Below, one piece after another: positions 30,354-45,083 of a stretch of DNA of 64,000 nucleotides; position 1 is the first letter of the stretch; each line of letters begins with the position of its first letter. The stretch is taken from the IMG/VR virus record IMGVR_UViG_2778261571_000004, one strand, 5' to 3'. Origin of the DNA: a virus. Its lineage: Duplodnaviria > Heunggongvirae > Uroviricota > Caudoviricetes. Under the pieces are notes generated by a model that searched no databases, was not told the origin of the DNA, and saw only the letters and a list, made by a program, of their open reading frames with translations. Made by a program: the position numbers and the translations under genes.

Positions 30354-30465
30354 CTCATCACTTGGAAGCATACCCTCGACAATATCAGAAAGATTTGTCG
30401 AGGGTTCGGGCTTTCCCTATGTTTGAACGATTAAATGTTAACAGCAATTAAATATTTTGTATATG

Positions 30466-31266: not shown

Positions 31267-31368
31267 GAAACTTATTCCATAATCAATTTTTGGTGGAATG
31301 TACGGTTAGTCTGTCTACGCATCATAGAGATGTATATAATGACCAAAAAAGACTTAAAAAGGTAGACT

Positions 31369-31890
31369 ATGGTTAAAGACATCACCTACGGCATACCGGC
31401 TGAAGTCTGGCCGCGAGACTACGAACATGCTGAAAACATACTTATGTTCTGGCGGAAGAACAACATTCCTGTAAGAGTCACGCTTGAAGACGGTCAGGTG
31501 TTTTGCATGTACGTTCAGGGGACAATGCCTTCCCGCAATAAGCTAGATTTATGCCCGCTTCCATATGATAAAGAAAATCGTATAAGACTCCCACTTGAGC
31601 GCATTAGCACAATTGAATCAGGTGTAATCGATGGCATTGCTCGCGAGTTCAAAGGTAGGCTAACAATACATCCAGACTATGTTGACAATCAGCCATCACG
31701 CCGTGACTTTTTTGCGATATGTCGCAAGGCTTATCAAAACGACCAATCTATAAGGGTCTACATGACAGACGGTCGTGAAATAGAAGGGGTGTCAAGAGGC
31801 GTTGATGCTTGCCAGGTCACTCTTAAGTTAGAAGACGGCAGAAAAATACTTGTTTTCTTCGATTGGGTTGAACGAATCCTTCCATTTTAA
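31369..31890 (+). CDS. Hypothetical protein with two beta-rich repeats (weak resemblance to Rof/Sm-like fold)
   Basis: Internal repeat VRVTLEDGQVFCMYVQG / QVTLKLEDGRKILVFFDW; pattern only. Confidence 0.25.
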   Translation: MVKDITYGIPAEVWPRDYEHAENILMFWRKNNIPVRVTLEDGQVFCMYVQGTMPSRNKLDLCPLPYDKENRIRLPLERISTIESGVIDGIAREFKGRLTIHPDYVDNQPSRRDFFAICRKAYQNDQSIRVYMTDGREIEGVSRGVDACQVTLKLEDGRKILVFFDWVERILPF

Positions 31891-31902
31891 ATCTATAAGG
31901 GT

Positions 31903-31930
31903 AATAACCGGCTAAGCCCGGTTATTATTT
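31903..31930 (+). terminator. Rho-independent terminator
   Basis: aataaccggctaagcccggttatt hairpin followed by T-rich run. Confidence 0.5.
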
Positions 31931-32185
31931 TACATGCCATTCATTTAAAACTCTTTCAATGTCACTCTGTATAAATATATAAGGTTAAAAGCCCGAATTG
32001 ATTATTTATTTAGGGAACACCTTCGACGATCTCGCTTTTATTTCTAGGACTTTCATCCCTGCAGAAAATTTAAAAAAAACACTTGCAATCTTTTTTCACG
32101 TATTGATAATTGAACTCGTCGAAAGCGAGCTGGCTAACGACAGTAAAAAATAAATTCATTTTAATTTTTCGTAAGGATGTCCATC

Positions 32186-32836
32186 ATGGCTAACATTATC
32201 ATTTCTAAAAAATCCATCATTGAAGCTGCTGCCATTGTATCCGACGAGCTGCGCGAAAAAGCAGATCTGGCAACTCAAACATATAACGAACATTATAAAA
32301 ATGGTACGCACACCAAAGCAGACAAAGCAAATATGCAAGCTGCGACCACTAAACTTGCTTACTTCATCAACAACGTCGTAAACGCAGTAGAAGACGAAAA
32401 ATTATGCTCTGTTTTCTACTATGCGATTAAAGCAAGCAAACAAGCGCCAGAAGTATTTTTCCGTGATGCAATGACTAATAGTTATTCTCTGGAAAAACTG
32501 GTCTATCTGGTCAAATCAATTAAAGCTGGTAAATGCGTTTATTCCATCGCTGATATGTCAGGATCTCGTGTATTCGCTTTAATCGATATGATTAACGACG
32601 AGATCGACACGTTCACCAATGGCGCTGTTTTCGATTTAATGAATGAAGCGAAAAAAGCGTGTGAAATTAAATTGGACGCTGGCTATACTCAAGCCAACCA
32701 GTTGATCAATCTTTGCGAACGTCTTGGACTTGTTGAAAAAGTCAAAGGAGCTGGGAGCGCGAAAGCTGGTACTCAGCAATATCGCTTTATTAAAAATGAT
32801 TTCTATAACTATCTGGCTGATGCTTTCAAAGCGTAA
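32186..32836 (+). CDS. Hypothetical protein
   Basis: ORF track 32177-32836; start adjusted to MANIIIS; AT-rich. Confidence 0.3.
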   Translation: MANIIISKKSIIEAAAIVSDELREKADLATQTYNEHYKNGTHTKADKANMQAATTKLAYFINNVVNAVEDEKLCSVFYYAIKASKQAPEVFFRDAMTNSYSLEKLVYLVKSIKAGKCVYSIADMSGSRVFALIDMINDEIDTFTNGAVFDLMNEAKKACEIKLDAGYTQANQLINLCERLGLVEKVKGAGSAKAGTQQYRFIKNDFYNYLADAFKA

Positions 32837-32849
32837 TTAATGGAATCTT

Positions 32850-32870
32850 GCGCCCACTATGGGCGCTTTT
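32850..32870 (+). terminator. Rho-independent terminator (identical copy at 33121)
   Basis: gcgcccactatgggcgc hairpin plus T run. Confidence 0.55.
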
Positions 32871-32883
32871 AAGGAGCTTAATC

Positions 32884-33114
32884 ATGTTTATTCTTATCGC
32901 TGGCGTTAACGTGCGCAATGAATATTTTGTTAATCGCATCGCTGGGATCGCTGGTTACGCTGGGCGCGCAGTCGAGTTCATAAATGAAACAACGCGAAAA
33001 ATTGACTTATTGAACGACCAGGAGCGAAAAAAAGCAGACGTGAATGACGCTGATATATTTTTAATGTTAAAAGCGTTTGTAGAAATGGGATTTAAAATCA
33101 GTTTACACAAATAA
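32884..33114 (+). CDS. Hypothetical small protein flanked by identical terminators
   Basis: Start at MFILIAG with AAGGAG RBS; ORF track 32848-33114. Confidence 0.35.
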   Translation: MFILIAGVNVRNEYFVNRIAGIAGYAGRAVEFINETTRKIDLLNDQERKKADVNDADIFLMLKAFVEMGFKISLHK

Positions 33115-33120
33115 AATCGA

Positions 33121-33143
33121 GCGCCCACTATGGGCGCTTTTTT
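33121..33143 (+). terminator. Rho-independent terminator (second identical copy)
   Basis: gcgcccactatgggcgc hairpin plus TTTTTT. Confidence 0.55.
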
Positions 33144-33167
33144 CGTTTCCAATACTCCCACCATAAC

Positions 33168-33192
33168 GCGCCAATGATGGCGCTTTTTTATT
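33168..33192 (+). terminator. Rho-independent terminator-like hairpin
   Basis: gcgccaatgatggcgc hairpin plus T run. Confidence 0.45.
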
Positions 33193-33604
33193 GTCTTTGA
33201 CTCACTCCAACAACATAAAAATAAGCGCCAAAATAACGCCATAGACGCGCTTTTATATCCTTGTCAGTACATACCCATTACTTAACACATTAACGCGCTT
33301 AAAACGCGTTATATTGCGCTATAGAGTATGGTTAATCATTGGCTTTTAGTCTTGCTATGTGATCCGCGTTTATTTGTCGGCGCGGATCGGCTCTTTGTGT
33401 TGTTTTGTATCCGCTCGCGTATTATGTGCGCGTGATTTTTCACATAATCACACCACTTAATCACATATGTGATTACGCTACGAAAGAAATCTGGATGTCT
33501 CAGGCGACGAAAGTCATCATAATTTTCCCCGCTCACCTGTCCGACAACCGCTGGTTGGATTCCACCAGCTTCCCGATGTTTTTTCTACATAAAGGCGAAT
33601 GCAG

Positions 33605-33694
33605 CCGTTTCCCGAAAAAATCCTGGCCGTTCCCCCGTCGGCTCATGAATACGTTCCTCGCCGCTTCTGAAAATTTCCCTGCGGCAGCTGGTGG
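33605..33694. repeat. Short cluster of about 22-bp direct repeats related to the array at 37572-37712, with adjacent Chi octamer
   Basis: CCGTTTCCCGAAAAAATCCTGG then CCGTTCCCCCGTCGG...; GCTGGTGG at 33687-33694. Confidence 0.45.
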
Positions 33695-33730
33695 CTATAG
33701 AGAAAGGGCCGTTTCTGGCCCTCTTCTCAG

Positions 33731-34213
33731 TTACACGCCATCAAGGATGTGGATGCGGTTGCTTGCGTATACATTCAGCATAAAGTTAGCGCAAAACAGT
33801 TTCCATGTATCAACGCCAGCGGTATACGTAATGTTTTTGCATTTAATCGCATTGTTGGCGATCCGCATCCCCTGCGATACTGCTTCATCGTCGGAAAATT
33901 TGAACGACGATTGAGTTTTAATCCAGACAGAAATCTGCGTAGCGAACTCAATCAGCTTGGACTGGCAGAATCGCCCGGAGCGCACCGGAAAGACGAACGT
34001 TCCGAATCCAGAATTTACCACATACGCTTTCTCAAATACCCGCGAGTAACGACGATTGCAAATGATGTCGCGTGCAATAATGCATTTTTCTTGTGCTGAC
34101 AGTTCTACCGTCTCATTGTCGCGCCATGCACCAAGTACTCGTTTTTCAATGTCAGAGAACGTTACAGCGATATTGCCATGTGCGGGTGCGTTTACAGTAG
34201 CGATAAAATTCAT
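33731..34213 (-). CDS. Hypothetical protein (operator-tagged moron)
   Basis: 160 aa; motif family 2 about 25 nt upstream of start. Confidence 0.35.
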   Translation of the reverse strand: MNFIATVNAPAHGNIAVTFSDIEKRVLGAWRDNETVELSAQEKCIIARDIICNRRYSRVFEKAYVVNSGFGTFVFPVRSGRFCQSKLIEFATQISVWIKTQSSFKFSDDEAVSQGMRIANNAIKCKNITYTAGVDTWKLFCANFMLNVYASNRIHILDGV

Positions 34214-34235
34214 GATTAATTCCTTATCGTAAATA

Positions 34236-34250
34236 ACAAATTGTTTTCTT
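34236..34250. promoter_or_regulatory. Operator-like palindrome, motif family 2
   Basis: aacaaattgttttct upstream of gene starting at 34213. Confidence 0.4.
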
Positions 34251-34418
34251 GTTGGTGTTAATTATCGTTGTACGAATAAGGCGTCAAAGTAGAAAGTTAC
34301 GGTAGCCGGACGGGAACAGGTGGGTTTGTCGGTTGCCTGGAGGTAAGAGGTTGGTGTTTTTAGCCTGCGGTAAACAGGATGGTCATTTAAGGCCACCAGC
34401 GTAAACTGGTGGCGTTTG

Positions 34419-35117
34419 TCATGCTGGAATCATATCTAATTGAAAAGATTCCATTATATATGTTGGTTCATCGATGTAGTCCTTCAGCCTATTGTCAAAT
34501 GACTCAAGCGGATTGTGTGGCGGATGATACCAGTCCGAGTATTCATTTAAAAAATGACCCATTATCAGTTCGATACCCACCTTTACTCCTGCAACTCCGA
34601 ACCATGCATTGTGCGTTAGTTGCTGGGCGTCTGTATCCAGTACGCGAATGCCATCAACAAGCTTTATTAGATTCCTGTGGTTTTCGTGTACTGTAACCTC
34701 TCCGCTGGTTAAGTCTATTTCAGCGAGAAAATATGGTCTTTTGCTTCCGTCGGACTTTTTGAAATGACAGTCATAAGCGACAGCAAACCACGCTTTACTA
34801 AAGTCTTTGTTGGCGTAAGTGGTACACATGCAACTAGGATAATCATCAATGTTAAACCAATCAGGAAGCGGATCATCTTTAGACGAGCCAGCAAAATCAT
34901 CAGCTAGTTTGTAGTTAATGTCTGGGTTGTACTTGCTGACAAAATCATCCACATCCTCTACATCCTCAACACCTTTCCAAACTTTACATTTCTCCGACCA
35001 AAAGAATCTCGCAATATCCGAAATGACTGGGAAACGTTTTTCAATTGAATTTATCAACTCTGCATGTTCTTTAAGAGATTTACGCTTGTTGATAAGCTTC
35101 TGAAGATGCGTACTCAT
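34419..35117 (-). CDS. Hypothetical protein
   Basis: 232 aa ORF, acidic N-terminal half, no recognised motif. Confidence 0.35.
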   Translation of the reverse strand: MSTHLQKLINKRKSLKEHAELINSIEKRFPVISDIARFFWSEKCKVWKGVEDVEDVDDFVSKYNPDINYKLADDFAGSSKDDPLPDWFNIDDYPSCMCTTYANKDFSKAWFAVAYDCHFKKSDGSKRPYFLAEIDLTSGEVTVHENHRNLIKLVDGIRVLDTDAQQLTHNAWFGVAGVKVGIELIMGHFLNEYSDWYHPPHNPLESFDNRLKDYIDEPTYIMESFQLDMIPA

Positions 35118-35400
35118 TTTTAATTCCTCGTTTGTTTTCGATGTGATAATTATCGCTGAATGAAATAGGCTAAAAAGAAGATTTATAAGGCTACTATCTG
35201 GAAGTAAGGCAAAGTGTTGTCATTTAAGGCCACCAATGCTGATGGCCTTAATAATTATCGCCCGATTACGCTAAGGATCTTTTCCTCAACTGATTTGTTG
35301 TTGCGACTAAACTGCCTTGCGTATCTGATGACAGAAGAGGCGTTTCGCTTTCTGACCATCTCGGCTCTTTCCTTCAGGCGTTTCTTGAAATCGCCCATAT

Positions 35401-35776
35401 TTACCACCAGGCGCAAAACGTCAGTCTGTTATTGTGAAAGTCGTGGTTCTTAATCAGGTCTTCCACAAGCTCTTTCAACTCCCCCACATCATGCCAGTAA
35501 CCTTCATCGTACTCCTGACTGCCGAAGAAAAAACCTTCCCGGGTAGGCAAGTACTCTTCGCAATTACTTTCGTTTATGTGCATCAAATGAGCCTTCAGAA
35601 AACAAATGTCATTCATCGTTAATTCTAAAAGCTCACAATTTTCGACTTCACCTACGTTGCGCTCCATCCACCCAACGAGCGCATTGAACTTACGGAAGTA
35701 AGCAACCCGCTTTCTGGATGCCTCATTATTCAGATCGTTTTTTGGCTGCGTCTCGATGTAGATATCAAGTCCCATG
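35401..35776 (-). CDS. Hypothetical protein
   Basis: Start set at MGLDIYIE with AAGGA RBS; ORF track 35401-35817 begins at an alternative start. Confidence 0.3.
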
Positions 35777-35892
35777 ATGGTTTCCTTATTAAGTTGCTTC
35801 AGTGAAATCATTTTCACAAATCAGATAAGGCAGAAAACAAATTGTTATCGGGCATAATAAAATGGCGCGGTTTGCGCGCCATTTAAAGAGGA

Positions 35893-36286
35893 TTAAGCGA
35901 ATACGCTTTCAGGGATTAAGGTGTCGGCAGGAATGCCAGAGGTAATGCGCAGACCGTACTGGCCAATCCAGGTGGTGCTGGTGTTCAGGCTGGAGGCGAA
36001 TACGGTGTTAACCATATTCATCATGGTTTCAAACACCTCTTCATCAACCTGGCGGAAGTAGTTCTCGATTTTCAGCAGCAGCGGGTCAGTTGCATCGAGA
36101 ATGGACTGGTATTGAGTCGCGTACTCGCCGTCGGAGTCATCACCTTTACGCACGATCGTACTGGCCTGTACTTCGGCGCCAGTTTCGGTGTTGTACGTAA
36201 CAACGGTGATTTTTGCCACATTCTTACCTTCGGCGGTTTCAGAGGCATAGTAAACATCAACTGTCAGTTTTTCGCGTTTAATGGTC
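35893..36286 (-). CDS. Hypothetical protein
   Basis: Start set at MTIKREK with GGAG RBS; ORF track 35893-36354; terminator hairpin downstream. Confidence 0.35.
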
Positions 36287-36414
36287 ATTTCACTCTCCGT
36301 AGTGTATTGGTTATTTTTATATTCTATGATCGTAAGTATGTACTTACAATACAAAAAAGCCCCGTAAGGATGGCGGGGCTGTCGTACGGTCGACTAATTA
36401 CCACTTGCACATTA

Positions 36415-36726
36415 TCAGGCTATTGCCATCACTGATGCTCTCTGAATCTCTTGCTGGGCCACGCGGTTAACTTCCATCAAAGCCAGTTCGAGCTGATGTT
36501 CCGGCCACATTCTTTGAAATGCCACCCAGCCTTTTCCACGCTGGCGACGAACATTCATTACATAACGAGTAAAGGTGTTTTTATCGAAAGACACCGCTGT
36601 TTCACGGAACAGACGAATAGAGGTTCCATTGGCAACGATGTCCAGCAAAGTTAATTGAGCAACCAGCGCAGGCTTCTCTTTTCTCTTCTGGTCTTTGTCC
36701 AGACCAAGAACCAATGATTTTTTCAT
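36415..36726 (-). CDS. Hypothetical small basic protein
   Basis: Start set at MKKSLVLG with GGAG RBS directly downstream of motif family 2; ORF track 36415-36774. Confidence 0.3.
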   Translation of the reverse strand: MKKSLVLGLDKDQKRKEKPALVAQLTLLDIVANGTSIRLFRETAVSFDKNTFTRYVMNVRRQRGKGWVAFQRMWPEHQLELALMEVNRVAQQEIQRASVMAIA

Positions 36727-36736
36727 CACAACTCCG

Positions 36737-36754
36737 TAAACAACTTGTTTTCTC
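36737..36754. promoter_or_regulatory. Operator-like palindrome, motif family 2
   Basis: taaacaacttgttttctc immediately upstream of RBS. Confidence 0.4.
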
Positions 36755-36879
36755 AATGGCGTAAATAATACCAATAAGAAAACGGCTACAAAGCATAATG
36801 ATCAGGTGCATGAGCGATATGCAGGTTCCTCCCTGCGGCTATAGAGAAATTAAGCCAGCAATGCTGGCTTTGGTTGGGA

Positions 36880-37230
36880 TTACGCGAATACCTCAAGAAA
36901 CTCCTGAACGTCCCAATGCTGGACGAGGTGAAGATAGACCTTAGAAATCACGTCATTTTCGCTATCGCATGTGAAGTAGTACTTCTGGCTGCGGTTGTAT
37001 GTGTCCACACAAAATTCGCTCATATCCATAAAGTCAGCATCTTCACCCATGTCGCAAATCATCAAAGCAGGTGCGTCATCACGAGTCATCAGCTCAAGCA
37101 CCCACCGCGAATTAATCAGAGTGGAAGACCAACCTTCTAACTCATAAAACTGATCAAACTCTTTTTGAGTTAATTTCTTAATTTGGTTGATGTCGATATT
37201 TGCAAACATAAAGCAATCCTTAAACAACAT
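36880..37230 (-). CDS. Hypothetical acidic protein
   Basis: 116 aa, D/E-rich; start codon lies inside a motif family 2 palindrome (gaaaacATGttgttt). Confidence 0.3.
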   Translation of the reverse strand: MLFKDCFMFANIDINQIKKLTQKEFDQFYELEGWSSTLINSRWVLELMTRDDAPALMICDMGEDADFMDMSEFCVDTYNRSQKYYFTCDSENDVISKVYLHLVQHWDVQEFLEVFA

Positions 37231-37571
37231 GTTTTCTTGATGGTGTTATTATCGCAATAACGCAAAGGCGAAAAAGGATTTTATTCCGGTGAATGTGGTT
37301 TTGGCAGTGAGTTTTCAGGTTCAGTACCGAGTACACTTTTTACATTATTCTGATTTAGTGGCCGAAGGTGGCTGGTGGGCAGAATAATCATCTCCCCGAA
37401 AACCTACTGAAATCGATTGTGACCCGTTGGCTGTCTGGCACAATTACGCTGTAACTGGGCATTCAGAGGGAGTCCAACGGTAAGTTAGTCCGCCTACGTG
37501 AGCGCCTCTCTTCTTCCCGCACATTACAGGTGGATAGCCGCAACTCTCCCTCTCGCTATACCGGTACGCCG

Positions 37572-37712
37572 CCGTTCCTGAACCGGCATCGAGCCTTTTC
37601 CCGAAATCCACACAGGCAACTCGACCGTTTCCCTGAAAACCTCCAGCCGTTCCCCGAAGGCAACCCAGCCGTTTCTGTAGCGGGATGCAGCCTTTTCCCT
37701 TATGGACCGGAG
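37572..37712. repeat. Array of six tandem 22-bp direct repeats (iteron-like)
   Basis: CCGTTCCTGAACCGGCATCGAG, CCTTTTCCCGAAATCCACACAG, CCGTTTCCCTGAAAACCTCCAG, CCGTTCCCCGAAGGCAACCCAG, CCGTTTCTGTAGCGGGATGCAG, CCTTTTCCCTTATGGACCGGAG; strict 22-bp register apart from one 9-nt gap. Confidence 0.65.
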
Positions 37713-37859
37713 GCTGACCGTAGGGGTGTTACGGGGGATAAAATCAGGAGTTGAATAAATACGAAAAAGGAGGCGACACCCCTCCTTCCCTCCCCACTTA
37801 TACATACCTGTCTTGTTCGCTATACATGTTGTGTTTTCTTCGTGTTTTATCTGTCTCAA

Positions 37860-38700
37860 CCTCTCTATAGGCGTTAATGCTCACTCCTTCCAGAACGTTC
37901 TATACGGCGACTAATTCTGTTGGTGAATTGGGTGTGTTGTTCTCTCTGTCGGTGTAAATGGTTTCGTTCGTTTTGCGGTGGTTCTTCTATGGGGTGTTCT
38001 CGTCGTTTTGGTGATTGTTCTTCTCCGTCTATGGAGTAATGGCAGGTGGGCGATTGCTTTCGTTATTGTGTTTGAGTTGTTTGTCTGGAGTGTGTGAAAG
38101 GCTTTTGTAGTTATTCGTGTATTGGGTAATGGCGTTTCCCGTGATTGTTATGTTTCGTGTCTTTTGGGGTTGAGAGAAACCTTGCGGTAACAGGCTTCGT
38201 TGGGGTTTCAGTGATTCTGGTGTTTCTTCGCTGTTTGGGGAATGGCGTGTCGTGGGTATCGCGCGTATGAATGTTTTCGGATTGCCTGTGAAAGTTAGGT
38301 TGGTTGTCCGGTAGCCTGGGAAGAAGAGGTGGGTCTTTTCGGTAGCCTGCCATAAAGAGGTTGGTTGTTTTGGGGAATGGCATATGTGTTATTTAGTTGT
38401 TTTGTTATGCCTGAAAATAAGTTGTTTATATGGTTGTGTAACGCAATGGGAGTGATTTTGAGCGTGTGTTTTTGTTGGTAGTGTGTTGGTCGTCTGTGGT
38501 GAAAATTGGACGCTGTGGCGCTGTCTGCTGCGTAGAATTACGGGTATAAGCAGTGATGTGTGAAAACGTCAATTTTTTAGACCAAATCGGGTGAAAGCGT
38601 TGATGTTTCGTTGATCTGTTATTCAGTTGTTTCCTTGATTGTATAAACAACTATAACTTATTGATATTTAAGGGTGTGATTGCAGGTATGGAAGGAGAGT
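37860..38700. other. Non-coding region with extreme GT strand skew and degenerate 100-130-bp repeats
   Basis: About 78 percent G+T on plus strand in sampled 60-mers; recurring words gtaatggc, gggaatggc, cggtagcctg; ORFs here are low-complexity. Confidence 0.5.
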
Positions 38701-38781
38701 AGTGGCGATCAACGGATTCTTATAGAAAAGAATCAAATTGTGACCGCCATTATCAACTGATTGATTTGTTTACTTGTGTAG

Positions 38782-39180
38782 TCAGTTCTCGAAATGAATA
38801 GGGTCAACGTAATGCCGCTCACCGCTTTTACCATTACACAGCACTGTAACTTTCGCCTTTTCACTCCAGGCTGAGTATAGAAAGTTCCCATCAGGTTGAA
38901 CATGGTAACGAGAGAAGTAAACATCGCCGACTGAGGCGTCGAACATGTTCCTATCTTTTTCACTTTGGGCAAGCGAGATGGATATCACCGAATTCCCATT
39001 TGGGGAAACGATTTTAAATTTATTCCCTATATCCATAACAATATTGTAACCAGGTAATTGCTTGTGTGTTTCCGGATCTATTTTCATGCATCGTGGGTAC
39101 ACGATAGTGTTAGGCTCTTCAACTGGCGTGGCATTAGCAGAAAGCACAAAAAATATTAGTGCCAATGGTGCATATTTCAT
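38782..39180 (-). CDS. Putative secreted protein
   Basis: 132 aa with N-terminal signal-peptide-like segment MKYAPLALIFFVLSANA. Confidence 0.4.
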   Translation of the reverse strand: MKYAPLALIFFVLSANATPVEEPNTIVYPRCMKIDPETHKQLPGYNIVMDIGNKFKIVSPNGNSVISISLAQSEKDRNMFDASVGDVYFSRYHVQPDGNFLYSAWSEKAKVTVLCNGKSGERHYVDPIHFEN

Positions 39181-39189
39181 TTATCCCTC

Positions 39190-39481
39190 ACAATTTCCAA
39201 TTTTCCAGACCATCGTCTATTTCAGCGTCAGGGTGGAATTGTACCGCATCAAATCCTACATCGAGCACCTTTCGAATGTTCTTGATGGTTTGCTATGTGA
39301 CACCGTAATCACGCAGCTTTTCTTCCCTCCCCTGACTCCCCCATACTCCGTTTCTGTACCCAATTGAGTCCGAGATCGTATGGTGCTCGAAACAGATATT
39401 TGGTAGACACTCAGAGTCATGCTGTGTAACGAGGGTAGGGCTACTAACTGTCGTCTTATACAATTTGGTGAGTTTCAGCAT
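39190..39481 (-). pseudogene. Possible frameshifted small gene
   Basis: 62-aa ORF 39293-39481 ends at a stop while a second frame continues plausibly (...IKNIRKVLDVGFDAVQFHPDAEIDDGLENWKL) to about 39190. Confidence 0.2.
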
Positions 39482-39723
39482 TTTACCACCCCGTTCGGAA
39501 ACAACTCATTCGCCGTAGTTGATATAACCTCCCAATTAACGCCGACATCAGCGTTATGGCATTGTCTGATTTTTTGCATCACCTGTACGCATTGTTCATC
39601 AGTGAGATCTGTCCTTACTTCAGCAATATCTTCTTTGTGCCACATAACCATGAGTAAGGGTTCGTCTTCTGGATAGTTTTTCAGTTTCTCGATGATTTCT
39701 TTTGCTGTTCCAAACATCTTCAT
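39475..39723 (-). CDS. Hypothetical small acidic protein
   Basis: 82 aa; AGGAG RBS and motif family 2 palindrome directly upstream. Confidence 0.35.
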   Translation of the reverse strand: MKMFGTAKEIIEKLKNYPEDEPLLMVMWHKEDIAEVRTDLTDEQCVQVMQKIRQCHNADVGVNWEVISTTANELFPNGVVKC

Positions 39724-39728
39724 CTCCT

Positions 39729-39746
39729 AAACAATTTGTTTTCTTA
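39729..39746. promoter_or_regulatory. Operator-like palindrome, motif family 2 (second copy at about 39774-39796)
   Basis: taaacaatttgttttctt and gaaaacaaattgtttta, within 100 nt of the metG terminator. Confidence 0.4.
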
Positions 39747-39830
39747 TATGGCTTATTATCTCAATCAACAAAAGGTAGAAAACAAATTGTTTTAGGGCTT
39801 GTGTAAATCAGGAGGGATTGTGTCTATATG

Positions 39831-39856
39831 AAAATGCCCAGCGTATTGCTGGGCAT
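39831..39856 (-). terminator. metG Rho-independent terminator
   Basis: aatgcccagcaatacgctgggcatttt on minus strand, 20 nt downstream of metG stop. Confidence 0.65.
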
Positions 39857-39876
39857 TGTGAAGAATGGTTGCTTAA

Positions 39877-41910
39877 TTACTTAACCTGGTGGCCAGGTTT
39901 AGCACCGACATCCGGGCTTAACAGGAAGATATCTTTCCCGCCAGGGCCAGCAGCCATCACCATGCCTTCGGAGATACCGAAGCGCATTTTACGCGGAGCC
40001 AGGTTAGCCACCATAATGGTGTGACGACCAATCAGTGCCTGTGGGTCTGGATAAGCAGAACGGATGCCTGAGAAGACATTGCGTTTTTCACCGCCGAGAT
40101 CCAGTGTCAGACGCAGCAGCTTGTCAGAACCTTCAACAAACTCTGCGTTTTCGATCAGCGCCACGCGCAGGTCAACTTTGGCGAAGTCGTCAAAGGTGAT
40201 GGTTTCCTGAATCGGGTCGTCAGCCAGTGGGCCAGTTACCGGTGCGGCTGTGGCTTTCACTTCTTCTTTGGATGCTTCCACCAGTGCTTCCACCTGTTTC
40301 ATATCGATACGGTTATACAGTGCCTTGAACGGATTCACTTTATGGCCCAGCAGCGGTTGCTGGATACCATCCCAGGTCAGTTCTGTATTCAGGAATGCTT
40401 CTGCACGTTCAGTCAGTTTCGGCAGTACCGGCTTCAGGTACGTCATCAGCACGCGGAACAGGTTAATGCCCATAGAGCAAATCGCCTGCAGATCGGCATC
40501 GCGTCCTTCCTGCTTCGCCACCACCCACGGAGCCTGTTCATCGACATAGCGGTTAGCCAGGTCAGCCAATGCCATGATTTCACGGATAGCTTTACCAAAT
40601 TCGCGGCTTTCCCATGCTTCGCCAATCACTTCAGCGGCATCAGTAAAGGTTTTGTACAGTTGCGGGTCAGCCAGTTCGTTTGCCAGCACGCCGTCAAAAC
40701 GCTTGTTGATAAAGCCTGCATTACGGGAGGCCAGGTTAACCACTTTGTTCACGATATCGGCATTCACGCGCTGAACGAAATCCTCCAGGTTGAGATCGAT
40801 ATCATCAATGCGCGAAGAGAGTTTCGCAGTGTAGTAGTAACGCAGGCTGTCAGCGTCAAAATGATTCAGCCAGGTGCTGGCTTTAATAAAGGTGCCGCGA
40901 GACTTGGACATCTTCGCGCCGTTCACCGTCACATAGCCATGAACAAACAGGTTGGTCGGCTTGCGGAAGTTGCTGCCTTCCAGCATGGCAGGCCAGAACA
41001 GGCTGTGGAAGTAAACGATATCTTTACCGATGAAGTGGTACAGCTCGGCGGTGGAGTCTTTCTTCCAGTATTCATCGAAGCTGGTGGTATCGCCGCGCTT
41101 GTCGCACAGATTCTTGAAGGAACCCATGTAGCCAATCGGCGCGTCCAGCCAGACGTAGAAATATTTGCCCGGCGCGTCCGGAATTTCAAAACCGAAGTAA
41201 GGCGCATCGCGGGAGATATCCCACTGTTGCAGGCCAGATTCAAACCACTCCTGCATTTTGTTTGCCACCTGCTCCTGCAACGCGCCGCTGCGGGTCCATG
41301 CCTGCAACATTTCGCTGAAAGAAGGCAGATCAAAGAAGAAGTGTTCGGAATCACGCATTACCGGGGTAGCGCCAGAAACCACCGATTTCGGCTCGATCAA
41401 TTCAGTCGGGCTATATGTTGCGCCGCAGACTTCACAGTTATCGCCGTATTGATCTGGCGCTTTACATTTCGGGCAGGTGCCTTTTACAAAACGATCCGGC
41501 AGGAACATGCCTTTTTCCGGGTCGTACAACTGAGAGATAGTGCGGTTTTTAATAAAACCGTTCTCTTTCAGGCGAGTATAGATAAGCTCAGACAACTGAC
41601 GGTTCTCTTCGCTGTGCGTCGAGTGATAGTTGTCATAGCTGATGTTAAAGCCTGCGAAATCAGTCTGGTGTTCCTGACTCATTTCGCCAATCATCTGTTC
41701 CGGTGTGATACCAAGCTGCTGTGCTTTCAGCATGATCGGCGTACCGTGGGCATCGTCGGCACAGATGAAATTAACCTCGTGGCCGCGCATTCGCTGGTAA
41801 CGAACCCAGACATCAGCCTGGATGTGCTCCAGCATATGGCCGAGGTGGATTGAGCCGTTAGCGTACGGCAGCGCGCACGTCACCAGAATTTTCTTCGCGA
41901 CTTGGGTCAT
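39877..41910 (-). CDS. metG: Methionine--tRNA ligase
   Basis: 677 aa from [31 protein letters not shown]; HIGH (HLGH) and KMSKS motifs, zinc knuckle CPKC...CEVC, C-terminal tRNA-binding domain; ORF track start at 42039 is an upstream in-frame extension. Confidence 0.95.
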
Positions 41911-42067
41911 AGTAGGCATTACTTCTTTGTAGTGAAAAGGGGCTTGATAGTAACAAAATGGCCTTATGTCTGCCATGTGATAACAGCATTTCTCATAAAT
42001 GATTAAATGTCGTAGCTGGAGTACACTACAAGGCGACAATTGCGCAAATTAAAATAAAGGAGACGGG

Positions 42068-43168
42068 ATGAGCGAGTCCAAATCGCCGGATGCCCTGAGA
42101 GCAATGGTAGCCGGTACGCTGGCTAATTTTCAGCACCCAACCCTGAAACACAACCTGACTACGCTTAAAGCGTTACACCATGTTGCGTTGATGGATGACA
42201 CACTGCATGTCGAACTAATCATGCCTTTCGTGTGGAATAAGCCTTTTGAAGACCTGAAAGAGCAATGTAGTGGTGATCTGCTCCGTATCACTGGCGCAAA
42301 GGCTATCGACTGGAAGCTGTCGTACAACATTGCCACGCTTAAGCGCGTCAAAAACCAACCAGGCATTAATGGCGTTAAGAACATTATCGCCGTCAGCTCA
42401 GGCAAGGGCGGTGTAGGCAAATCGTCCACAGCAGTAAACTTGGCACTGGCGTTGGCTGCTGAAGGTGCGAAAGTTGGTATTTTGGATGCCGATATCTACG
42501 GTCCATCAATTCCAACCATGCTGGGTGCGGAAAACCAACGTCCAACCTCACCGGACGGCACTCACATGGCACCTATCATGTCTCATGGCCTGGCAACCAA
42601 CTCAATTGGTTATCTGGTCACTGACGACAACGCGATGGTGTGGCGTGGCCCGATGGCGAGCAAGGCGTTGATGCAAATGTTGCAAGAAACCTTATGGCCG
42701 GATCTGGATTATCTGGTGCTCGACATGCCGCCAGGCACCGGTGACATTCAATTGACACTGGCGCAAAACATTCCTGTAACTGGTGCGGTTGTGGTAACTA
42801 CGCCGCAAGACATCGCGCTGATCGATGCGAAGAAAGGCATTGTGATGTTCGAAAAAGTCGAAGTGCCGGTACTAGGTATCGTCGAAAACATGAGTGTGCA
42901 TATTTGCAGTAACTGCGGTCATCACGAGCCAATTTTTGGCACCGGTGGCGCACAGAAACTGGCCGAGAAATACAACACGCAGTTGTTAGGCCAAATGCCA
43001 CTTCATATCTCTCTTCGTGAAGATCTGGATAACGGAACACCAACCGTTATTAGTCGTCCAGATAGCGAATTTACGGCTATTTATCGTGACCTCGCAGATC
43101 GCGTTGCTGCCCAAATGTATTGGCAAGGTGAAGTAATACCTGGCGAAATCGCATTCCGCGCAGTGTGA
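42068..43168 (+). CDS. apbC: Fe-S cluster carrier ATPase ApbC/Mrp
   Basis: Deviant Walker A GKGGVGKSS, CxxC motif (CSNCGHHE), divergent from metG with 157-bp spacer as in enterobacterial chromosomes. Confidence 0.95.
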   Translation: MSESKSPDALRAMVAGTLANFQHPTLKHNLTTLKALHHVALMDDTLHVELIMPFVWNKPFEDLKEQCSGDLLRITGAKAIDWKLSYNIATLKRVKNQPGINGVKNIIAVSSGKGGVGKSSTAVNLALALAAEGAKVGILDADIYGPSIPTMLGAENQRPTSPDGTHMAPIMSHGLATNSIGYLVTDDNAMVWRGPMASKALMQMLQETLWPDLDYLVLDMPPGTGDIQLTLAQNIPVTGAVVVTTPQDIALIDAKKGIVMFEKVEVPVLGIVENMSVHICSNCGHHEPIFGTGGAQKLAEKYNTQLLGQMPLHISLREDLDNGTPTVISRPDSEFTAIYRDLADRVAAQMYWQGEVIPGEIAFRAV

Positions 43169-43170
43169 TA

Positions 43171-43197
43171 AAAAGGCGGTGCAATGCACCGCCTAAT
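43171..43197. terminator. Bidirectional terminator between convergent apbC and umuD-like gene
   Basis: aaaaggcggtgcaatgcaccgcct hairpin. Confidence 0.55.
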
Positions 43198-43205
43198 CAG
43201 CTCTC

Positions 43206-43595
43206 CTACATCACGGGACAATCATCAAACTCGCCACTTCTTGCGTCGTTGATAATGTGAGTGATCACACCAAACACGGCATTGCTGCCCGTGCATCCAT
43301 CGTCATCCTTTGGCAATGCTTCCTTCTTACCGGTTCTTAAATCCTCCAGATGCTGACGTGGGTACTTCCGGTATCTTTTTACGCGATATTCCCCATCCAG
43401 AGCGCATACAAGCAGAGAACCATCAACCGGGGTAAGTGAGGAATCGACCACCAGCAATGCACCCTGTAATATTCCCTCACGATGATGACTATCAGCTGCC
43501 CTCATGAAGTAGGTCGCTGAAGGATGTCTAATTATCTGCTGATCAAGAGAAATACGGCTCTCAGCATAATCCGCCGCAGGAGAAGGGAAGCCCAT
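43206..43595 (-). CDS. humD: UmuD'-like S24 peptidase-fold protein (HumD-like, no UmuC partner in window)
   Basis: 129 aa beginning GFPSPAADY, the position where UmuD is cleaved to UmuD'; Ser (ADSH) and Lys (RVKR) equivalents retained; GAGG RBS. Confidence 0.75.
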   Translation of the reverse strand: MGFPSPAADYAESRISLDQQIIRHPSATYFMRAADSHHREGILQGALLVVDSSLTPVDGSLLVCALDGEYRVKRYRKYPRQHLEDLRTGKKEALPKDDDGCTGSNAVFGVITHIINDARSGEFDDCPVM

Positions 43596-43613
43596 AGCGT
43601 TTTCACCTCAGAA

Positions 43614-43633
43614 TACTGTTTATCCATACAGTA
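43614..43633. promoter_or_regulatory. LexA (SOS) box in promoter of umuD-like gene
   Basis: tactgtttatccatacagta matches CTGT-N8-ACAG consensus, about 20-40 nt upstream of start. Confidence 0.7.
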
Positions 43634-43759
43634 TACATTAAAGATGCTTGAAGTGTGCAATAGCGCGATGCTTTGCGCTCGCCTGGTGGTGCGTTATTTT
43701 TTGGCTATATCTTCTTTCTGATATACCGGATCGTTTCCTTTTGGCAGCAGGAGGCTTAA

Positions 43760-43957
43760 CTACCGGTAGTGCCGTAGCCGTTCCATGAAATAGGTGCGCA
43801 GGTTCTCAGGTTGCTCACGGGCTACCTGTTCCGCTATGACGGGTATGTTCAATCGCTCTTTGTAGGCAACCCCCCTGGCAGCCAGGTCAACGTTAACTTT
43901 ATTCCTTTCTTCCTGGCTTTTAGCTGCTATGTTCCATTCGTTCATATTAAATCCCAT
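43760..43957 (-). CDS. Hypothetical small protein upstream of umuD-like gene
   Basis: 65 aa ORF, same strand, separated from humD-like gene by LexA box region. Confidence 0.3.
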
Positions 43958-44413
43958 CCAGAATAATTGAATAACGGCTATTATTTAGTCGCCGCAATAT
44001 CTTCAAAGTTTTTTTTCTCACCCCATTGCTTTTTGCGCACAGCTTATCTGGCTTGCGGTGCGCGAAATGTAAATTCGCCTTCAGAGTTATCCACAAAGTT
44101 ATGCACTTGCAACGGGGCCATTTTCCTCATACCGTGTTTGCACACACAGGAAATGGATATTTTATTAATTGAATTTTATTAAATAATAATGATAAGGAGA
44201 AAATTTGAGATGTAATCATGACATTAATAGATAGGGCCTGCATTACAGGCCCCAACTACATCAAGGAATTCACAGTTCCCTGATTTTTATACCGAAAACA
44301 TGTGCCGTAAGTTCACGTTAACGACTTTCTTTCACCGAATCCAACTATATAGAGGTTGGGTTTCTACGTCAACGTGAGAGCACGCAGCTTTACATTAGAC
44401 GAGGATTACCCTG

Positions 44414-44551
44414 ATGATTGTATTTTTTCAGTTTCTAAGTGCATTTTTAAATGCGCCTGTTCTTAGCCAAGTGCTGGCGATTGTCTTCATCGTGGTTCTG
44501 ATATGGTTTTTCAAGTCAGTGATAAACAGAGGCGTGCGCTGGCTTATTTAA
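44414..44551 (+). CDS. Putative small hydrophobic peptide (45 aa)
   Basis: Own translation MIVFFQFLSAFLNAPVLSQVLAIVFIVVLIWFFKSVINRGVRWLI; below ORF-track length cutoff; nested inverted repeats upstream. Confidence 0.25.
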   Translation: MIVFFQFLSAFLNAPVLSQVLAIVFIVVLIWFFKSVINRGVRWLI

Positions 44552-44734
44552 TGTCGCGATGAGATATTAATTCCCTTGCTGTTTAACCATTTTTTGTGTG
44601 TGCTGGTGAGCGTGTGAAGGCTCAATTTGTTGCCCACCAGTATTTACTATTTCTAAGCTCCACAGTGTCACTTCCGCACAAACAACTTAGCGCGGAATCA
44701 GTATTCGGCCCAAGATGTAAAAAGCCAACCTGCG

Positions 44735-44959
44735 TTATGGTTCGCATTTCCAAATAGTGTTCTGAACGCCCTTGCCGGGCGCGAGATGTAGATTAGCGTT
44801 CACGCTATGCTGATATACGGCTTTAGACTTTCCATATTGCTGACAGGCTTTATCTGCGGTTTTTTGCAGGCTATCCAGCCCATACCAGCCATCAGACTGG
44901 ATGCTTACCTTTTCACCGTCATTGTATTGCACCATCGCGCACCCAAACATGGCTATCAT
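44735..44959 (-). CDS. Hypothetical small protein
   Basis: 74 aa ORF immediately upstream of hsdM on opposite strand. Confidence 0.25.
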   Translation of the reverse strand: MIAMFGCAMVQYNDGEKVSIQSDGWYGLDSLQKTADKACQQYGKSKAVYQHSVNANLHLAPGKGVQNTIWKCEP

Positions 44960-45083
44960 CGCACCGACAATACCACTTTTCCAAAAAGCTCTAATTAGGT
45001 CATTCGTTACCTAATGTCCGAACTGCTAAAGCATCCAAGTTGCTGTAGAATCACCGCCAATTACATAAGCCTGAAATAAGTGG

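What the first reader, a model, noticed from the sequence alone, without database searches (positions are those of the whole stretch)
37860..38700. About 0.8 kb non-coding stretch with extreme GT strand skew and long degenerate repeats
Plus strand is roughly 78 percent G+T in the 60-mers I counted, with recurring words (gtaatggc, gggaatggc, cggtagcctg twice in 40 nt) in units of about 100-130 bp. Only low-complexity ORFs occur here. Such skew over this length is unusual for enterobacterial intergenic DNA and could mark a structured non-coding RNA, a single-strand initiation or packaging-related region, or a protein-binding array linked to the adjacent 22-bp repeats.
Basis: seen in the sequence. 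Interest (0 to 1): 0.45.

Follow-up and report, generated by a model that had tools for sequence, protein, structure and literature searches.

The report
Conserved strand-skewed non-coding module, phage-plasmid
The GT-rich stretch is a real, conserved, non-coding part of the largest gene-free region of a common enterobacterial phage-plasmid family. It carries the same short repeated motif as the neighbouring 22-bp repeats, so it is probably a control region, but what it controls has not been shown.

Summary
The window is an SSU5/pHCM2-type phage-plasmid of E. coli. The skew is real. G+T is 0.74 over 37920-38500 and 0.69 over the stated 841 bp, z about 9.6. It is the strongest 1-kb outlier on a 97%-identical 114-kb plasmid.

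The stretch is non-coding and shows no conserved RNA fold on either strand. It is still under purifying selection: 56-71% identity between clades, while synonymous sites of neighbouring genes are saturated.

Its repeat core, read on the minus strand (GCCATT[A/C]CCC, four copies), is the same motif as the adjacent 22-bp-phased repeats (GCC[G/T]TT[T/C]CCC, plus strand). A mini-array of it lies 4 kb to the left.

This layout recurs in Salmonella, Klebsiella pneumoniae and a distant K. oxytoca relative.

Promoter-like sites, a copy of the neighbouring operon's promoter-proximal segment, a downstream terminator and the flanking gene orientation all favour minus-strand transcription. That would give an A+C-rich, G-poor, unstructured RNA.

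Best guess (about 0.35): a Rho-sensitive leader or insulator whose read-through is set by an unidentified motif-binding protein.

Rivals: a lytic replication origin, a decoy RNA, or a plus-sense leader with RfaH ops-like sites. Nothing was found in the literature I could search.

The parts
37900..38530 (-). Core of the skewed island. The plus strand is 73-74% G+T, which is 73-74% A+C on the minus strand, the strand of all flanking genes. Non-coding, no conserved RNA structure, under purifying selection.
   Evidence: Composition. Not coding. No structure. Constraint. Minus-sense C/G median 2.45 per 80 nt, with 50 of 67 windows above 2 against 2.4% of background windows.
38032..38043 (-). Motif copy 1 (GCCATTACTCCA), inside a 26-nt repeat whose plus-strand consensus is TTCTCCGTGTATGGGGTAATGGCGTG.
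   Evidence: The coordinates printed are 3 too low.
38122..38133 (-). Motif copy 2 (GCCATTACCCAA).
38235..38246 (-). Motif copy 3 (GCCATTCCCCAA).
   Evidence: Ranked 10th of 128,000 positions by the matrix built from the tandem array alone.
38370..38381 (-). Motif copy 4 (GCCATTCCCCAA).
   Evidence: Ranked 17th of 128,000 positions.
38309..38370 (+). Two tandem 31-nt units, CGGTAGCCTG-N-AAGAGGTGGGT. Each holds an RfaH ops-like core on the plus strand (38309-38318 and 38340-38349).
   Evidence: At least one intact CGGTAGNNTG in 24 of 25 representatives; three units in L013.
37764..37790 (-). Hairpin followed by a T-run: an intrinsic terminator for leftward transcription leaving the island.
   Evidence: window; K. 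pneumoniae. Not canonical in the SSU5 clade and not found in K. oxytoca.
37738..37768 (.). A+T-rich segment between the array and the island, around which the GC skew changes sign. The core CTTGAAT is kept across clades.
37571..37712 (+). Six phased repeats GCC[G/T]TT[T/C]CCC, starting at 37571, 37593, 37624, 37646, 37668 and 37690 (spacing 22, 31, 22, 22, 22). This is the island's motif in the opposite orientation. The plus strand is C-rich here (GC skew -0.22).
33604..33650 (+). Mini-array of the same motif (33604 and 33626) at the 3' end of the six-gene leftward operon. It is kept in SSU5, K. pneumoniae, K. oxytoca and Y. pestis pMT1.
38543..38572 (-). Conserved sigma-70-like promoter pointing into the island: TTGACG, 18 nt, TATACC.
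   Evidence: 23 of 23 representatives; alignments.
38554..38578 (+). Weak hairpin (TGATGT / ACGTCA) followed by T6. It is terminator-like for rightward transcripts and overlaps the promoter-like site above.
   Evidence: called by the tool in SSU5; plus-sense fold -10 to -17 kcal/mol in the E. coli and SSU5 clades, against -3 to -7 on the minus sense.
38597..38625 (-). Conserved block (plus strand CGTTGAT.TGTTATT) that is a paralogue of the promoter-proximal segment of the six-gene operon.
   Evidence: K. oxytoca 22/24 nt, z = 10; K. pneumoniae 19/21 nt, z = 6; window weak, z = 2.
38703..38756 (-). Invariant imperfect inverted repeat TGGCGATCAAC ... TGTGACCGCCA, overlapping a second leftward promoter-like site (TTGATA, 16 nt, GATTCT). 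Conservation ends at about 38760, where the variable cargo begins.
   Evidence: (minus-strand z -3.3 and -4.2).
37245..37261 (-). Palindromic, operator-like GTTATTATCGCAATAAC just upstream of the first gene of the leftward operon (36880..37230). It is the source of the duplicated segment listed above.

Best explanation
What it is. The GT-rich stretch is the plus-strand view of a conserved, non-coding unit of about 0.75 kb that is A+C-rich on the minus strand. It belongs to a cis-acting module of about 1.5 kb in SSU5/pHCM2-type phage-plasmids. The module sits between the variable cargo region and a conserved leftward operon of six small genes of unknown function.

How it most likely works (inferred, not shown).
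- Transcription enters from the right. It comes either from the cargo genes or from the conserved operator/promoter block at 38540-38760.
- It produces an untranslated RNA that is about 74% A+C and G-poor (C/G about 2.5-2.9). The RNA is essentially unable to fold, because A and C cannot pair with each other. This is the substrate that termination factor Rho prefers.
- Most transcription would therefore be aborted inside the island or at the hairpin at 37790-37764. That keeps the six-gene operon insulated and silent.
- The 10-nt C-rich motif GCCNTTNCCC occurs in three places: four to six times in the island in the RNA-sense orientation, as a 22-bp-phased array in the opposite orientation between the island and the operon promoter, and as a mini-array at the operon's far end. 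I take it to be the binding site of one sequence-specific protein encoded by the phage-plasmid and not yet identified.
- That protein would decide whether transcription gets through. It could act as a repressor or roadblock on the DNA arrays, or by binding the nascent RNA.

What is shown: the anatomy, the conservation, the lack of coding and of RNA structure, the shared motif, and the promoter-like and terminator-like signals.

What is inferred: that the region is transcribed leftward, that Rho acts on it, and that a protein binds the motif.
For: Identity and reach. The window is 97% identical to E. coli D9 plasmid A, an SSU5-like phage-plasmid. Homologues occur on 833 plasmids and in 12 phage records.

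Non-coding. Indels between clades are mostly not multiples of three, the longest ORFs change frame and strand, and peptides that start at the conserved ATGs range from 4 to 110 aa.

Constraint. 45% of alignment columns are at least 95% conserved and clades share 56-71% identity. Synonymous sites of three adjacent genes are saturated (pS 0.60-0.77).

Unstructured, C-rich RNA.
- Consensus folding energies are about 0 to -3 kcal/mol per 150 columns on the minus sense.
- The single-sequence fold is -0.15 kcal/mol per nt, z -0.87.
- C/G is above 2 in 50 of 67 80-nt windows, against 2.4% of background windows.

Direction of transcription.
- Two leftward sigma-70-like sites are conserved in 23 of 23 representatives, and no conserved rightward site lies left of the island.
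- A paralogue of the operon's promoter-proximal segment sits at the island's upstream end in two distant lineages.
- An intrinsic terminator is oriented for leftward transcripts in the E. coli and K. pneumoniae clades.
- All flanking genes are on the minus strand.

Shared motif and layout. The same tripartite layout and an A+C-rich island of about 850 bp occur in K. oxytoca pCAV1015-111, where a neighbouring protein is only 33% identical.

Position and dispensability.
- The module lies exactly at the border between backbone and cargo.
- It is missing from Y. pestis pMT1, which to my knowledge is not a functional phage, so it is not needed for plasmid maintenance.
Against: - No transcript data were available, so the direction and even the existence of transcription are inferred.
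- The -10 elements of the leftward promoter-like sites are weak (TATACC, GATTCT). The general scan tool did not call them.
- A Rho loading site needs only about 80 nt and no particular sequence. A plain rut explanation therefore accounts for neither the 700-nt length nor the strongly conserved 26-nt and 31-nt repeats.
- The intrinsic terminator is not canonical in the SSU5 clade and was not found in K. oxytoca.
- 22-bp phasing of the neighbouring array is typical of proteins that bind double-stranded DNA. That fits an origin or operator reading as well as this one.
- The conserved ops-like element lies on the opposite strand and is unexplained here.
- No candidate binding protein was identified. 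The fold of the best positional candidate gave no significant match.
Confidence: 0.35

Rival explanations
1. Lytic replication origin or another nucleoprotein complex on DNA. The 22-bp-phased repeats act as iterons for a phage initiator. The A+T-rich segment at 37738-37768 is the unwinding element. The inverted, dispersed motif copies and the distant mini-array act as auxiliary sites, as crr does for ori in phage P4. The strand-asymmetric flanks give single strands that cannot fold back on themselves, and transcription from the conserved block activates the origin.
For: - Tandem 22-bp phasing, further copies in inverted orientation and a second array 4 kb away are classic origin or iteron features.
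- GC skew changes sign from C-rich to G-rich on the plus strand across the A+T-rich centre, which is the polarity expected at an origin.
- The plasmid RepA origin is elsewhere and uses different iterons, so a separate phage origin must exist.
- The element encodes its own DnaE, DnaB-like helicase, primase, RNase HI and ligase.
- This is the largest gene-free region of the element.
- It is lost in pMT1, which to my knowledge no longer grows as a phage.
Against: - No initiator gene was recognised next to it.
- Only about 10 of each 22 bp are conserved, which is shorter than typical iterons.
- The whole-plasmid cumulative skew shows no turning point here.
- The A+T-rich segment is short (about 30 bp) and only moderately A+T-rich.
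- The DnaA-box-like sequences are not conserved.
- Known origins do not need 700 bp of extreme keto/amino skew.
Confidence: 0.2
2. Decoy or sponge RNA. The minus-sense RNA is a long, structure-free scaffold that displays four to six copies of the same motif found in the DNA arrays around the six-gene operon. It would titrate the motif-binding regulator, acting as an RNA anti-repressor. Alternatively it is the native target of the element's FljA-like, Hfq-like RNA-binding protein.
For: - The same motif appears in the RNA-sense orientation within an unstructured context.
- The promoter region partly duplicates that of the operon it would regulate.
- The primary sequence is conserved without structure or coding.
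- A FljA-family protein (Pfam PF03614, E 1e-80, with a weak Hfq-like tail) is core to every phage record that has the island. This includes Klebsiella elements, and Klebsiella, to my knowledge, has no flagellin for it to repress.
Against: - There are only four to six sites in 700 nt, far sparser than in CsrB or CrcZ.
- Proteins that bind duplex DNA rarely recognise the same sequence as RNA.
- Island and array copies differ systematically at two of the ten positions.
- Similarity to the fliC leader is a single 9-mer in one copy and is probably chance.
- Co-occurrence with the FljA-like gene is expected for any two backbone features.
Confidence: 0.15
3. Plus-sense transcript. The region is a long G+U-rich, C-poor and therefore Rho-resistant leader or non-coding RNA transcribed rightward. 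It carries one or two RfaH ops-like recruitment sites that would make transcription of the rightward cargo processive, for example the DUF262 plus type I restriction-modification genes in Klebsiella.
For: - CGGTAGCCTG matches the ops positions C3-G8, T11 and G12 that Zuber et al. 2018 (PMC5995543) found important for RfaH function.
- It occurs twice on the plus strand.
- At least one intact copy is kept in 24 of 25 representatives.
- A hairpin plus T6 on the plus strand lies at the right end.
- Klebsiella elements have plus-strand defence genes downstream.
Against: - No conserved plus-strand promoter lies left of the island.
- The genes immediately to the right are on the minus strand in the E. 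coli and SSU5 clades.
- G1 and G2 of ops are missing.
- The chance of such a match somewhere in a G+T-rich 700 nt is about 2% by my own estimate, and the window as a whole holds 3 matches against 1.2 expected.
- No RfaH paralogue is annotated on the D9 plasmid.
- The plus-sense hairpin would stop the transcript before it reaches the cargo.
Confidence: 0.1
4. No function of its own. The stretch is decayed tandem repeats whose skew reflects mutation bias, or it encodes a low-complexity protein or small hydrophobic peptides.
For: - The pattern of base pairs in variable columns is what a neutral process at this base composition would give (with my own calculation).
- The conserved ATG inside each repeat opens short hydrophobic ORFs.
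Against: - Identity between clades (56-71%) is far above the roughly 31% expected for saturated sequence of this composition, and above the saturated synonymous sites next door.
- The architecture is kept in a relative whose neighbouring protein is only 33% identical.
- ORF lengths and frames are not conserved, and indels are mostly not multiples of three.
Confidence: 0.05

Closest known systems
Rho utilisation (rut) regions and Rho-dependent attenuating leaders or insulators, such as lambda tR1 and the long Rho-sensitive leaders of enterobacterial genes, together with Rho-mediated silencing of prophage genes
   Same: Untranslated, C-rich, G-poor, unstructured RNA upstream of a termination point. 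It lies in horizontally acquired DNA, at a place where read-through into lytic-type genes would be harmful.
   Different: - It is roughly ten times longer than a rut site needs to be.
- It carries strongly conserved 26-nt and 31-nt repeats that rut sites do not need.
- It is paired with arrays of the same motif on DNA.
- Rho dependence is untested.
Iteron-type origins and their auxiliary sites: the 22-bp iterons of R6K and pPS10, and ori plus crr of phage P4
   Same: Tandem repeats phased at 22 bp, further copies in inverted orientation, a second cluster about 4 kb away, and an adjacent A+T-rich segment.
   Different: - Only about 10 of each 22 bp are conserved.
- No Rep or initiator gene is recognisable nearby.
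- The element's RepA uses other iterons at another site.
- Known origins lack a 700-bp strand-skewed flank.
RfaH ops / JUMPStart elements
   Same: CGGTAG..TG core on the non-template strand of a would-be rightward transcript, duplicated, in a long non-coding region of a mobile element carried by hosts that have RfaH.
   Different: - G1 and G2 are absent.
- No upstream promoter and no conserved downstream operon were found.
- The orientation is opposite to the better-supported direction of transcription.
Protein-sponge RNAs (CsrB/CsrC, CrcZ) and the leader-RNA immunity systems of P4, P1 and N15
   Same: A non-coding RNA with repeated short motifs, located in the regulatory region of a phage-plasmid upstream of early-type genes and followed by a terminator.
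   Different: - Motif density is much lower than in the sponges.
- There are no hairpin-presented motifs.
- Complementarity between island and array copies is systematically imperfect (8 of 10), which argues against an RNA-RNA pairing mechanism like that of P4 CI or P1 c4.

Membership tests
Rho-dependent terminator / rut region | C-rich, G-poor RNA of at least about 80 nt | tested here: met
   Minus-sense C 0.33, G 0.115. C/G is above 2 in 50 of 67 80-nt windows, against 2.4% of background windows.
Rho-dependent terminator / rut region | The RNA is unstructured and untranslated | tested here: met
   No conserved ORF. Consensus fold energies are near zero and the single-sequence z-score is -0.87.
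Rho-dependent terminator / rut region | The region is transcribed in that sense, and termination depends on Rho | not testable with these tools
   Only promoter-like and terminator-like sequence signals are available. RNA-seq and bicyclomycin treatment are needed.
Iteron-type replication origin | Tandem direct repeats phased at about two helical turns | tested here: met
   Six copies spaced 22, 31, 22, 22 and 22 bp.
Iteron-type replication origin | Cognate initiator gene adjacent to or overlapping the repeats | tested here: not met
   The neighbouring proteins match no Rep or initiator family in Pfam or PHROGs. The element's RepB-family initiator lies about 33 kb away and has different iterons.
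Iteron-type replication origin | Adjacent A+T-rich unwinding element and host-factor boxes | tested here: inconclusive
   An A+T-rich segment of about 30 bp is present and partly conserved. The DnaA-box-like and IHF-like matches are not conserved.
Iteron-type replication origin | Replication starts there | not testable with these tools
   Marker-frequency analysis or 2D gels are needed.
RfaH ops element | Core C3 G4 G5 T6 A7 G8 plus the pause-site T11 G12 on the non-template strand | tested here: met
   CGGTAGCCTG at 38309 and 38340. The important positions are taken from PMC5995543.
RfaH ops element | Full 12-mer GGCGGTAGnnTG | tested here: not met
   The sequences are TCCGGTAGCCTG and TTCGGTAGCCTG, so G1 and G2 are absent.
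RfaH ops element | Lies in the transcribed leader of a long operon, downstream of a promoter on the same strand | tested here: not met
   No conserved plus-strand promoter upstream. The downstream genes are on the opposite strand in two of the three main clades.
Structured non-coding RNA (any Rfam family) | Match to a covariance model, or a conserved secondary structure | tested here: not met
   Rfam E-value scan of 30000-45000 gave nothing relevant. The alifold z-scores are within noise across the body.
Protein-coding gene (low-complexity protein or small peptides) | A reading frame conserved among homologues | tested here: not met
   Indels are mostly not multiples of three, frames shift, and peptide lengths range from 4 to 110 aa.
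Protein-sponge RNA (CsrB or CrcZ type) | Many closely spaced copies of the binding motif of a known protein | tested here: not met
   GGA is not enriched and is lost from two of three E. coli copies, by my reading of the sequences. There are only four to six copies of the island's own motif.

The most novel reading that the evidence does not exclude
The island encodes a long, deliberately structure-free RNA that displays the same recognition motif as the DNA operator arrays around the neighbouring six-gene operon. It would act as an RNA decoy (anti-repressor) for a phage-plasmid regulator that reads one sequence on both DNA and RNA. One candidate is the element's FljA-like, Hfq-like protein, which is conserved even in Klebsiella hosts that, to my knowledge, lack flagella. 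This would be a new kind of switch between plasmid state and lytic growth in a very widespread family of phage-plasmids.
Probability: 0.12. Interest if true: 0.8.

Novelty: new variant of a known kind. Interest (0 to 1): 0.5.

Why it matters
SSU5/pHCM2-type phage-plasmids are common. Homologues of this region occur on 833 plasmids of Klebsiella, Escherichia, Enterobacter, Salmonella and Citrobacter and in 240 of 5,426 complete E. coli genomes. These elements carry cargo such as restriction systems, an extra methionyl-tRNA synthetase and resistance genes.

I could find no published account of how they choose between plasmid life and lytic growth, or of where lytic replication starts.

This module is their largest gene-free region. 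It is under selection as strong as that on the neighbouring genes, and it sits exactly where cargo is exchanged.

If it is a Rho-based insulator plus operator array, it explains how arbitrary cargo can be inserted without switching on phage genes. If it is the lytic origin or a decoy RNA, it is the missing control element of the family.

In either case it gives a defined target of about 1.5 kb for deletion, transcript-mapping and protein-binding experiments.

Tried and rejected
- **Known RNA family.** Rfam E-value scan, both strands: nothing relevant. No tRNA or tmRNA in the window.
- **Structured RNA.** Folding either strand is no better than shuffles. Consensus folding with column shuffles shows no signal in the body.
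- **Tandem repeats.** Tandem Repeats Finder found nothing. The repeats are dispersed and degenerate.
- **Coding.** Long ORFs, small ORFs starting at the conserved ATGs and low-complexity proteins are all rejected. An exact look-up of the 90-aa ORF in public gene calls found nothing.
- **RepA iterons.** The element's RepA iterons are GTATGCTGTCAGCGGT, at a P1-like origin about 33 kb away. They are unrelated to the 22-bp repeats.
- **Chi sites next to the arrays.** Chi is over-represented everywhere on the plasmid (28 sites against 3.5 expected), so these are not special.
- **Replication-skew turning point.** None at the island.
- **CsrA sponge.** GGA is not enriched and not conserved in the repeats, by my reading of the sequences.
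- **Mimic of, or antisense to, the fliC leader.** Only one 9-mer is shared, in one copy per clade, and Klebsiella to my knowledge has no fliC.
- **RNA-RNA pairing between island and array copies.** Complementarity is systematically 8 of 10, with two A·A mismatches, by my own calculation from the sequences.
- **CTTATAC at both ends as a special promoter or terminal repeat.** It is not enriched in the window.
- **Literature.** Searches on SSU5, pHCM2 and phage-plasmid non-coding features found nothing about this region. One search with loose term matching was wasted.
- **Metagenome scan with an 18-mer.** It returned mostly the same family plus chance matches, added no new distant clade and gave no transcript-like contigs.
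Full report
**What the window is.** The 1.4 kb around the finding is 96-97% identical to plasmids of about 95-115 kb in 240 of 5,426 complete E. coli genomes, and is never chromosomal. It is also 92-97% identical to Escherichia phages Cyrano, CMS-2020a and PhiR41_1, about 67% identical to Salmonella phage SSU5, and about 70% identical in part to Klebsiella phage-plasmids.

The best-matching record, E. coli D9 plasmid A, carries phage structural genes, a replisome (DnaE, DnaB-like helicase, primase, RNase HI, ligase), nucleotide-metabolism genes and a RepB-family plasmid initiator. The window is therefore an SSU5/pHCM2-type phage-plasmid. A more sensitive search finds the region on 833 plasmids of Klebsiella, Escherichia, Enterobacter, Salmonella, Citrobacter and Cronobacter.

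- G+T on the plus strand is 0.69 over the stated 37860-38700 and 0.74 over the core 37920-38500. The best 200-nt window reaches 0.775.
- The 600-nt maximum lies 9.6 sd above the rest of the window.
- On the 114-kb D9 plasmid, the corresponding 1-kb bin is the strongest outlier in both GC and keto skew.
- The recurring words are there.
- The skew is present in every one of 43 measurable homologues (0.62-0.74).

**It is not a gene.**
- NCBI's annotation pipeline (PGAP) leaves a 1.4-1.9-kb gap here in every relative examined. Phage depositors annotate short ORFs that disagree in position and strand.
- Between clades, indels are mostly not multiples of three, and the longest open frames change frame and strand.
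- The ATG inside each repeat is conserved, but the peptides it opens range from 4 to 110 residues.

**It is not a structured RNA.** Rfam finds nothing. Neither strand folds better than shuffled sequence (z -0.87 and +0.39). Consensus folding of 23 representatives gives energies close to zero across the body, with z-scores within noise. The only signals are the hairpins at the two ends.

**It is nevertheless under selection.**
- The homologues fall into three main clades: E. coli; SSU5, Enterobacter and Citrobacter; and K. pneumoniae. There are also recombinants.
- Clades share 56-71% identity in the island, and 45% of columns are at least 95% conserved.
- In three adjacent backbone genes the synonymous sites are saturated (pS 0.60-0.77).
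- Variable columns still hold 66% G+T, so composition is maintained as well as sequence.

**The island and the adjacent 22-bp repeats use one motif.**
- The island contains a 26-nt repeat, plus-strand consensus TTCTCCGTGTATGGGGTAATGGCGTG. It has three strong and one to three weak copies, all in the same orientation.
- Read on the minus strand, its invariant core is GCCATT[A/C]CCC.
- The neighbouring repeats at 37571-37699 are GCC[G/T]TT[T/C]CCC on the plus strand, spaced 22, 31, 22, 22 and 22 bp. Two more copies lie at 33604 and 33626.
- A weight matrix built only from the tandem copies ranks two island copies 10th and 17th among 128,000 positions of the window.
- With a joint matrix, the 114-kb D9 plasmid shows clusters only at these three places.
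- SSU5 and K. pneumoniae elements have the same tripartite layout with the same orientations.
- The array is C-rich on the plus strand (GC skew about -0.2) and the island is C-rich on the minus strand (plus-strand GC skew +0.27 to +0.46). The switch falls at a short A+T-rich segment plus a hairpin.

**A distant relative keeps the architecture.** K. oxytoca pCAV1015-111 has a different replicon type, and its orthologue of a neighbouring protein is only 33% identical. At the same position it has:
- a gene-poor gap of about 1.5 kb;
- about 850 bp that are 67% A+C on the gene-sense strand;
- dispersed GCCATC.CCCAA copies on that strand;
- 22-bp-phased and GGGAAACGG-type arrays in the opposite orientation.

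Y. pestis pMT1 is a relative that, to my knowledge, is no longer a functional phage. It has lost the island and the main array but keeps the mini-array next to the neighbouring gene. The module is therefore not needed for plasmid maintenance.

**Direction of transcription (inferred).**
- All flanking genes are on the minus strand.
- The conserved block to the right of the island (38540-38760) holds two leftward sigma-70-like sites present in 23 of 23 representatives. One of them overlaps an invariant inverted repeat that looks like an operator. The block also holds one rightward site that points away from the island.
- No conserved rightward promoter lies to the left of the island.
- The block contains a paralogue of the promoter-proximal segment of the six-gene leftward operon: 22/24 nt in K. 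oxytoca, 19/21 nt in K. pneumoniae, and weak in the window.
- A hairpin with a T-run oriented for leftward transcripts closes the island in the E. coli and K. pneumoniae clades, but not in the other two.
- Together these favour a minus-sense RNA. Such an RNA would be 74% A+C with C/G about 2.5. It could hardly fold, because A and C cannot pair with each other.

**Best explanation and its limits.** An untranslated, unstructured, C-rich, G-poor RNA is the preferred substrate of termination factor Rho (established knowledge). Its position between arbitrary cargo and a conserved block of small phage genes is where an insulator or attenuator would be useful.

I therefore propose a Rho-sensitive leader or insulator whose read-through is set by a protein that recognises GCCNTTNCCC, on the DNA arrays and perhaps on the RNA. 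My confidence is about 0.35. The proposal does not explain the length of the region, the strong conservation of the 26-nt and 31-nt repeats, or the ops-like element, and nothing here shows that the region is transcribed.

**Rivals.**
- A lytic origin fits the 22-bp phasing, the inverted and distant extra sites, the A+T-rich centre and the sign change of the skew. It lacks a recognisable initiator and has no support from the global skew.
- A decoy RNA fits the shared motif and the unstructured scaffold. A FljA-family protein with a weak Hfq-like tail is core to all of these elements, including those of Klebsiella, which to my knowledge lacks flagella. The link to the island is unproven.
- A plus-sense leader with RfaH ops-like sites fits the conserved CGGTAGCCTG. 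It has no promoter, no conserved downstream operon and no RfaH paralogue annotated on the D9 plasmid.
- Neutral decay and coding are essentially excluded.

**Novelty.** I found no description of this region in the searchable literature. I class it as a new variant of a known kind: a cis-regulatory or origin-type non-coding module with an unusual strand-asymmetric design. Its function remains to be shown.

**Note on coordinates.** Window positions printed are 3 too low. One search established the correct offset, and the coordinates in this report are corrected.

Noticed in passing
window 31369-31890 (+): A 173-aa protein of the FljA family (Pfam PF03614, E 1e-80), the post-transcriptional repressor of phase-1 flagellin, with a weak Hfq-like C-terminal match. 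It is a core gene of all 12 SSU5-like phage records, including those of Klebsiella, which to my knowledge lacks flagella, so its target there cannot be flagellin mRNA.
   Followed up: partly
window 39877-42039 (-) and rightward; D9 plasmid record 38305-48769: The cargo next to the module includes a full methionyl-tRNA synthetase (metG), apbC, an S24 peptidase, a DNA polymerase III theta homologue and a type I restriction-modification system. The cargo differs between clades. Klebsiella carries DUF262 plus a type I restriction-modification system.
   Followed up: partly
whole D9 plasmid (L055, L001, L007, L056); window sites e.g. 33687 and 37371: Chi (GCTGGTGG) is about eight-fold over-represented on the phage-plasmid, with 28 sites in 114 kb against 3.5 expected, in both orientations.
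   Followed up: partly
window 33459-33474: A perfect 16-bp palindrome, AATCACATATGTGATT, with nearby TCACA repeats. It lies in the intergenic region just left of the mini-array and looks like an operator.
   Followed up: no
window 38703-38749: An imperfect inverted repeat, TGGCGATCAAC ... TGTGACCGCCA, invariant from E. coli to Klebsiella. It lies immediately before the point where backbone conservation stops and the variable cargo begins. It could be an operator or a recombination site for cargo exchange.
   Followed up: partly
L005 4717-6000 and L006 (large K. pneumoniae / K. variicola IncFIB-type plasmids): These 180-300-kb plasmids carry the right-hand ~530 bp of the island plus the conserved block and DUF262 with a restriction-modification system. 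The segment is 95% identical to a K. pneumoniae SSU5-like element. The recombination junction therefore lies inside the skewed island.
   Followed up: partly
L007 20880-21100 and 22220-22760 (D9 plasmid record about 69900-71760): A P1/RepFIB-like plasmid origin: a DnaA box, a GATC cluster and two arrays of GTATGCTGTCAGCGGT iterons flanking the RepB-family initiator gene.
   Followed up: no
L021 (IMG/VR contig, 19.7 kb) and L013: In L021 an IS3-family element replaces the left part of the island. L013 has a third tandem copy of the 31-nt unit that contains the ops-like core.
   Followed up: no
L176 5216-5292 (K. oxytoca pCAV1015-111): An extra 22-bp-phased array of TTTGGGAAG sits in a 150-bp stretch with G 0.38 and C 0.07 on the gene-sense strand, between the island and the GGGAAACGG array. 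There are G-clusters every two helical turns.
   Followed up: no
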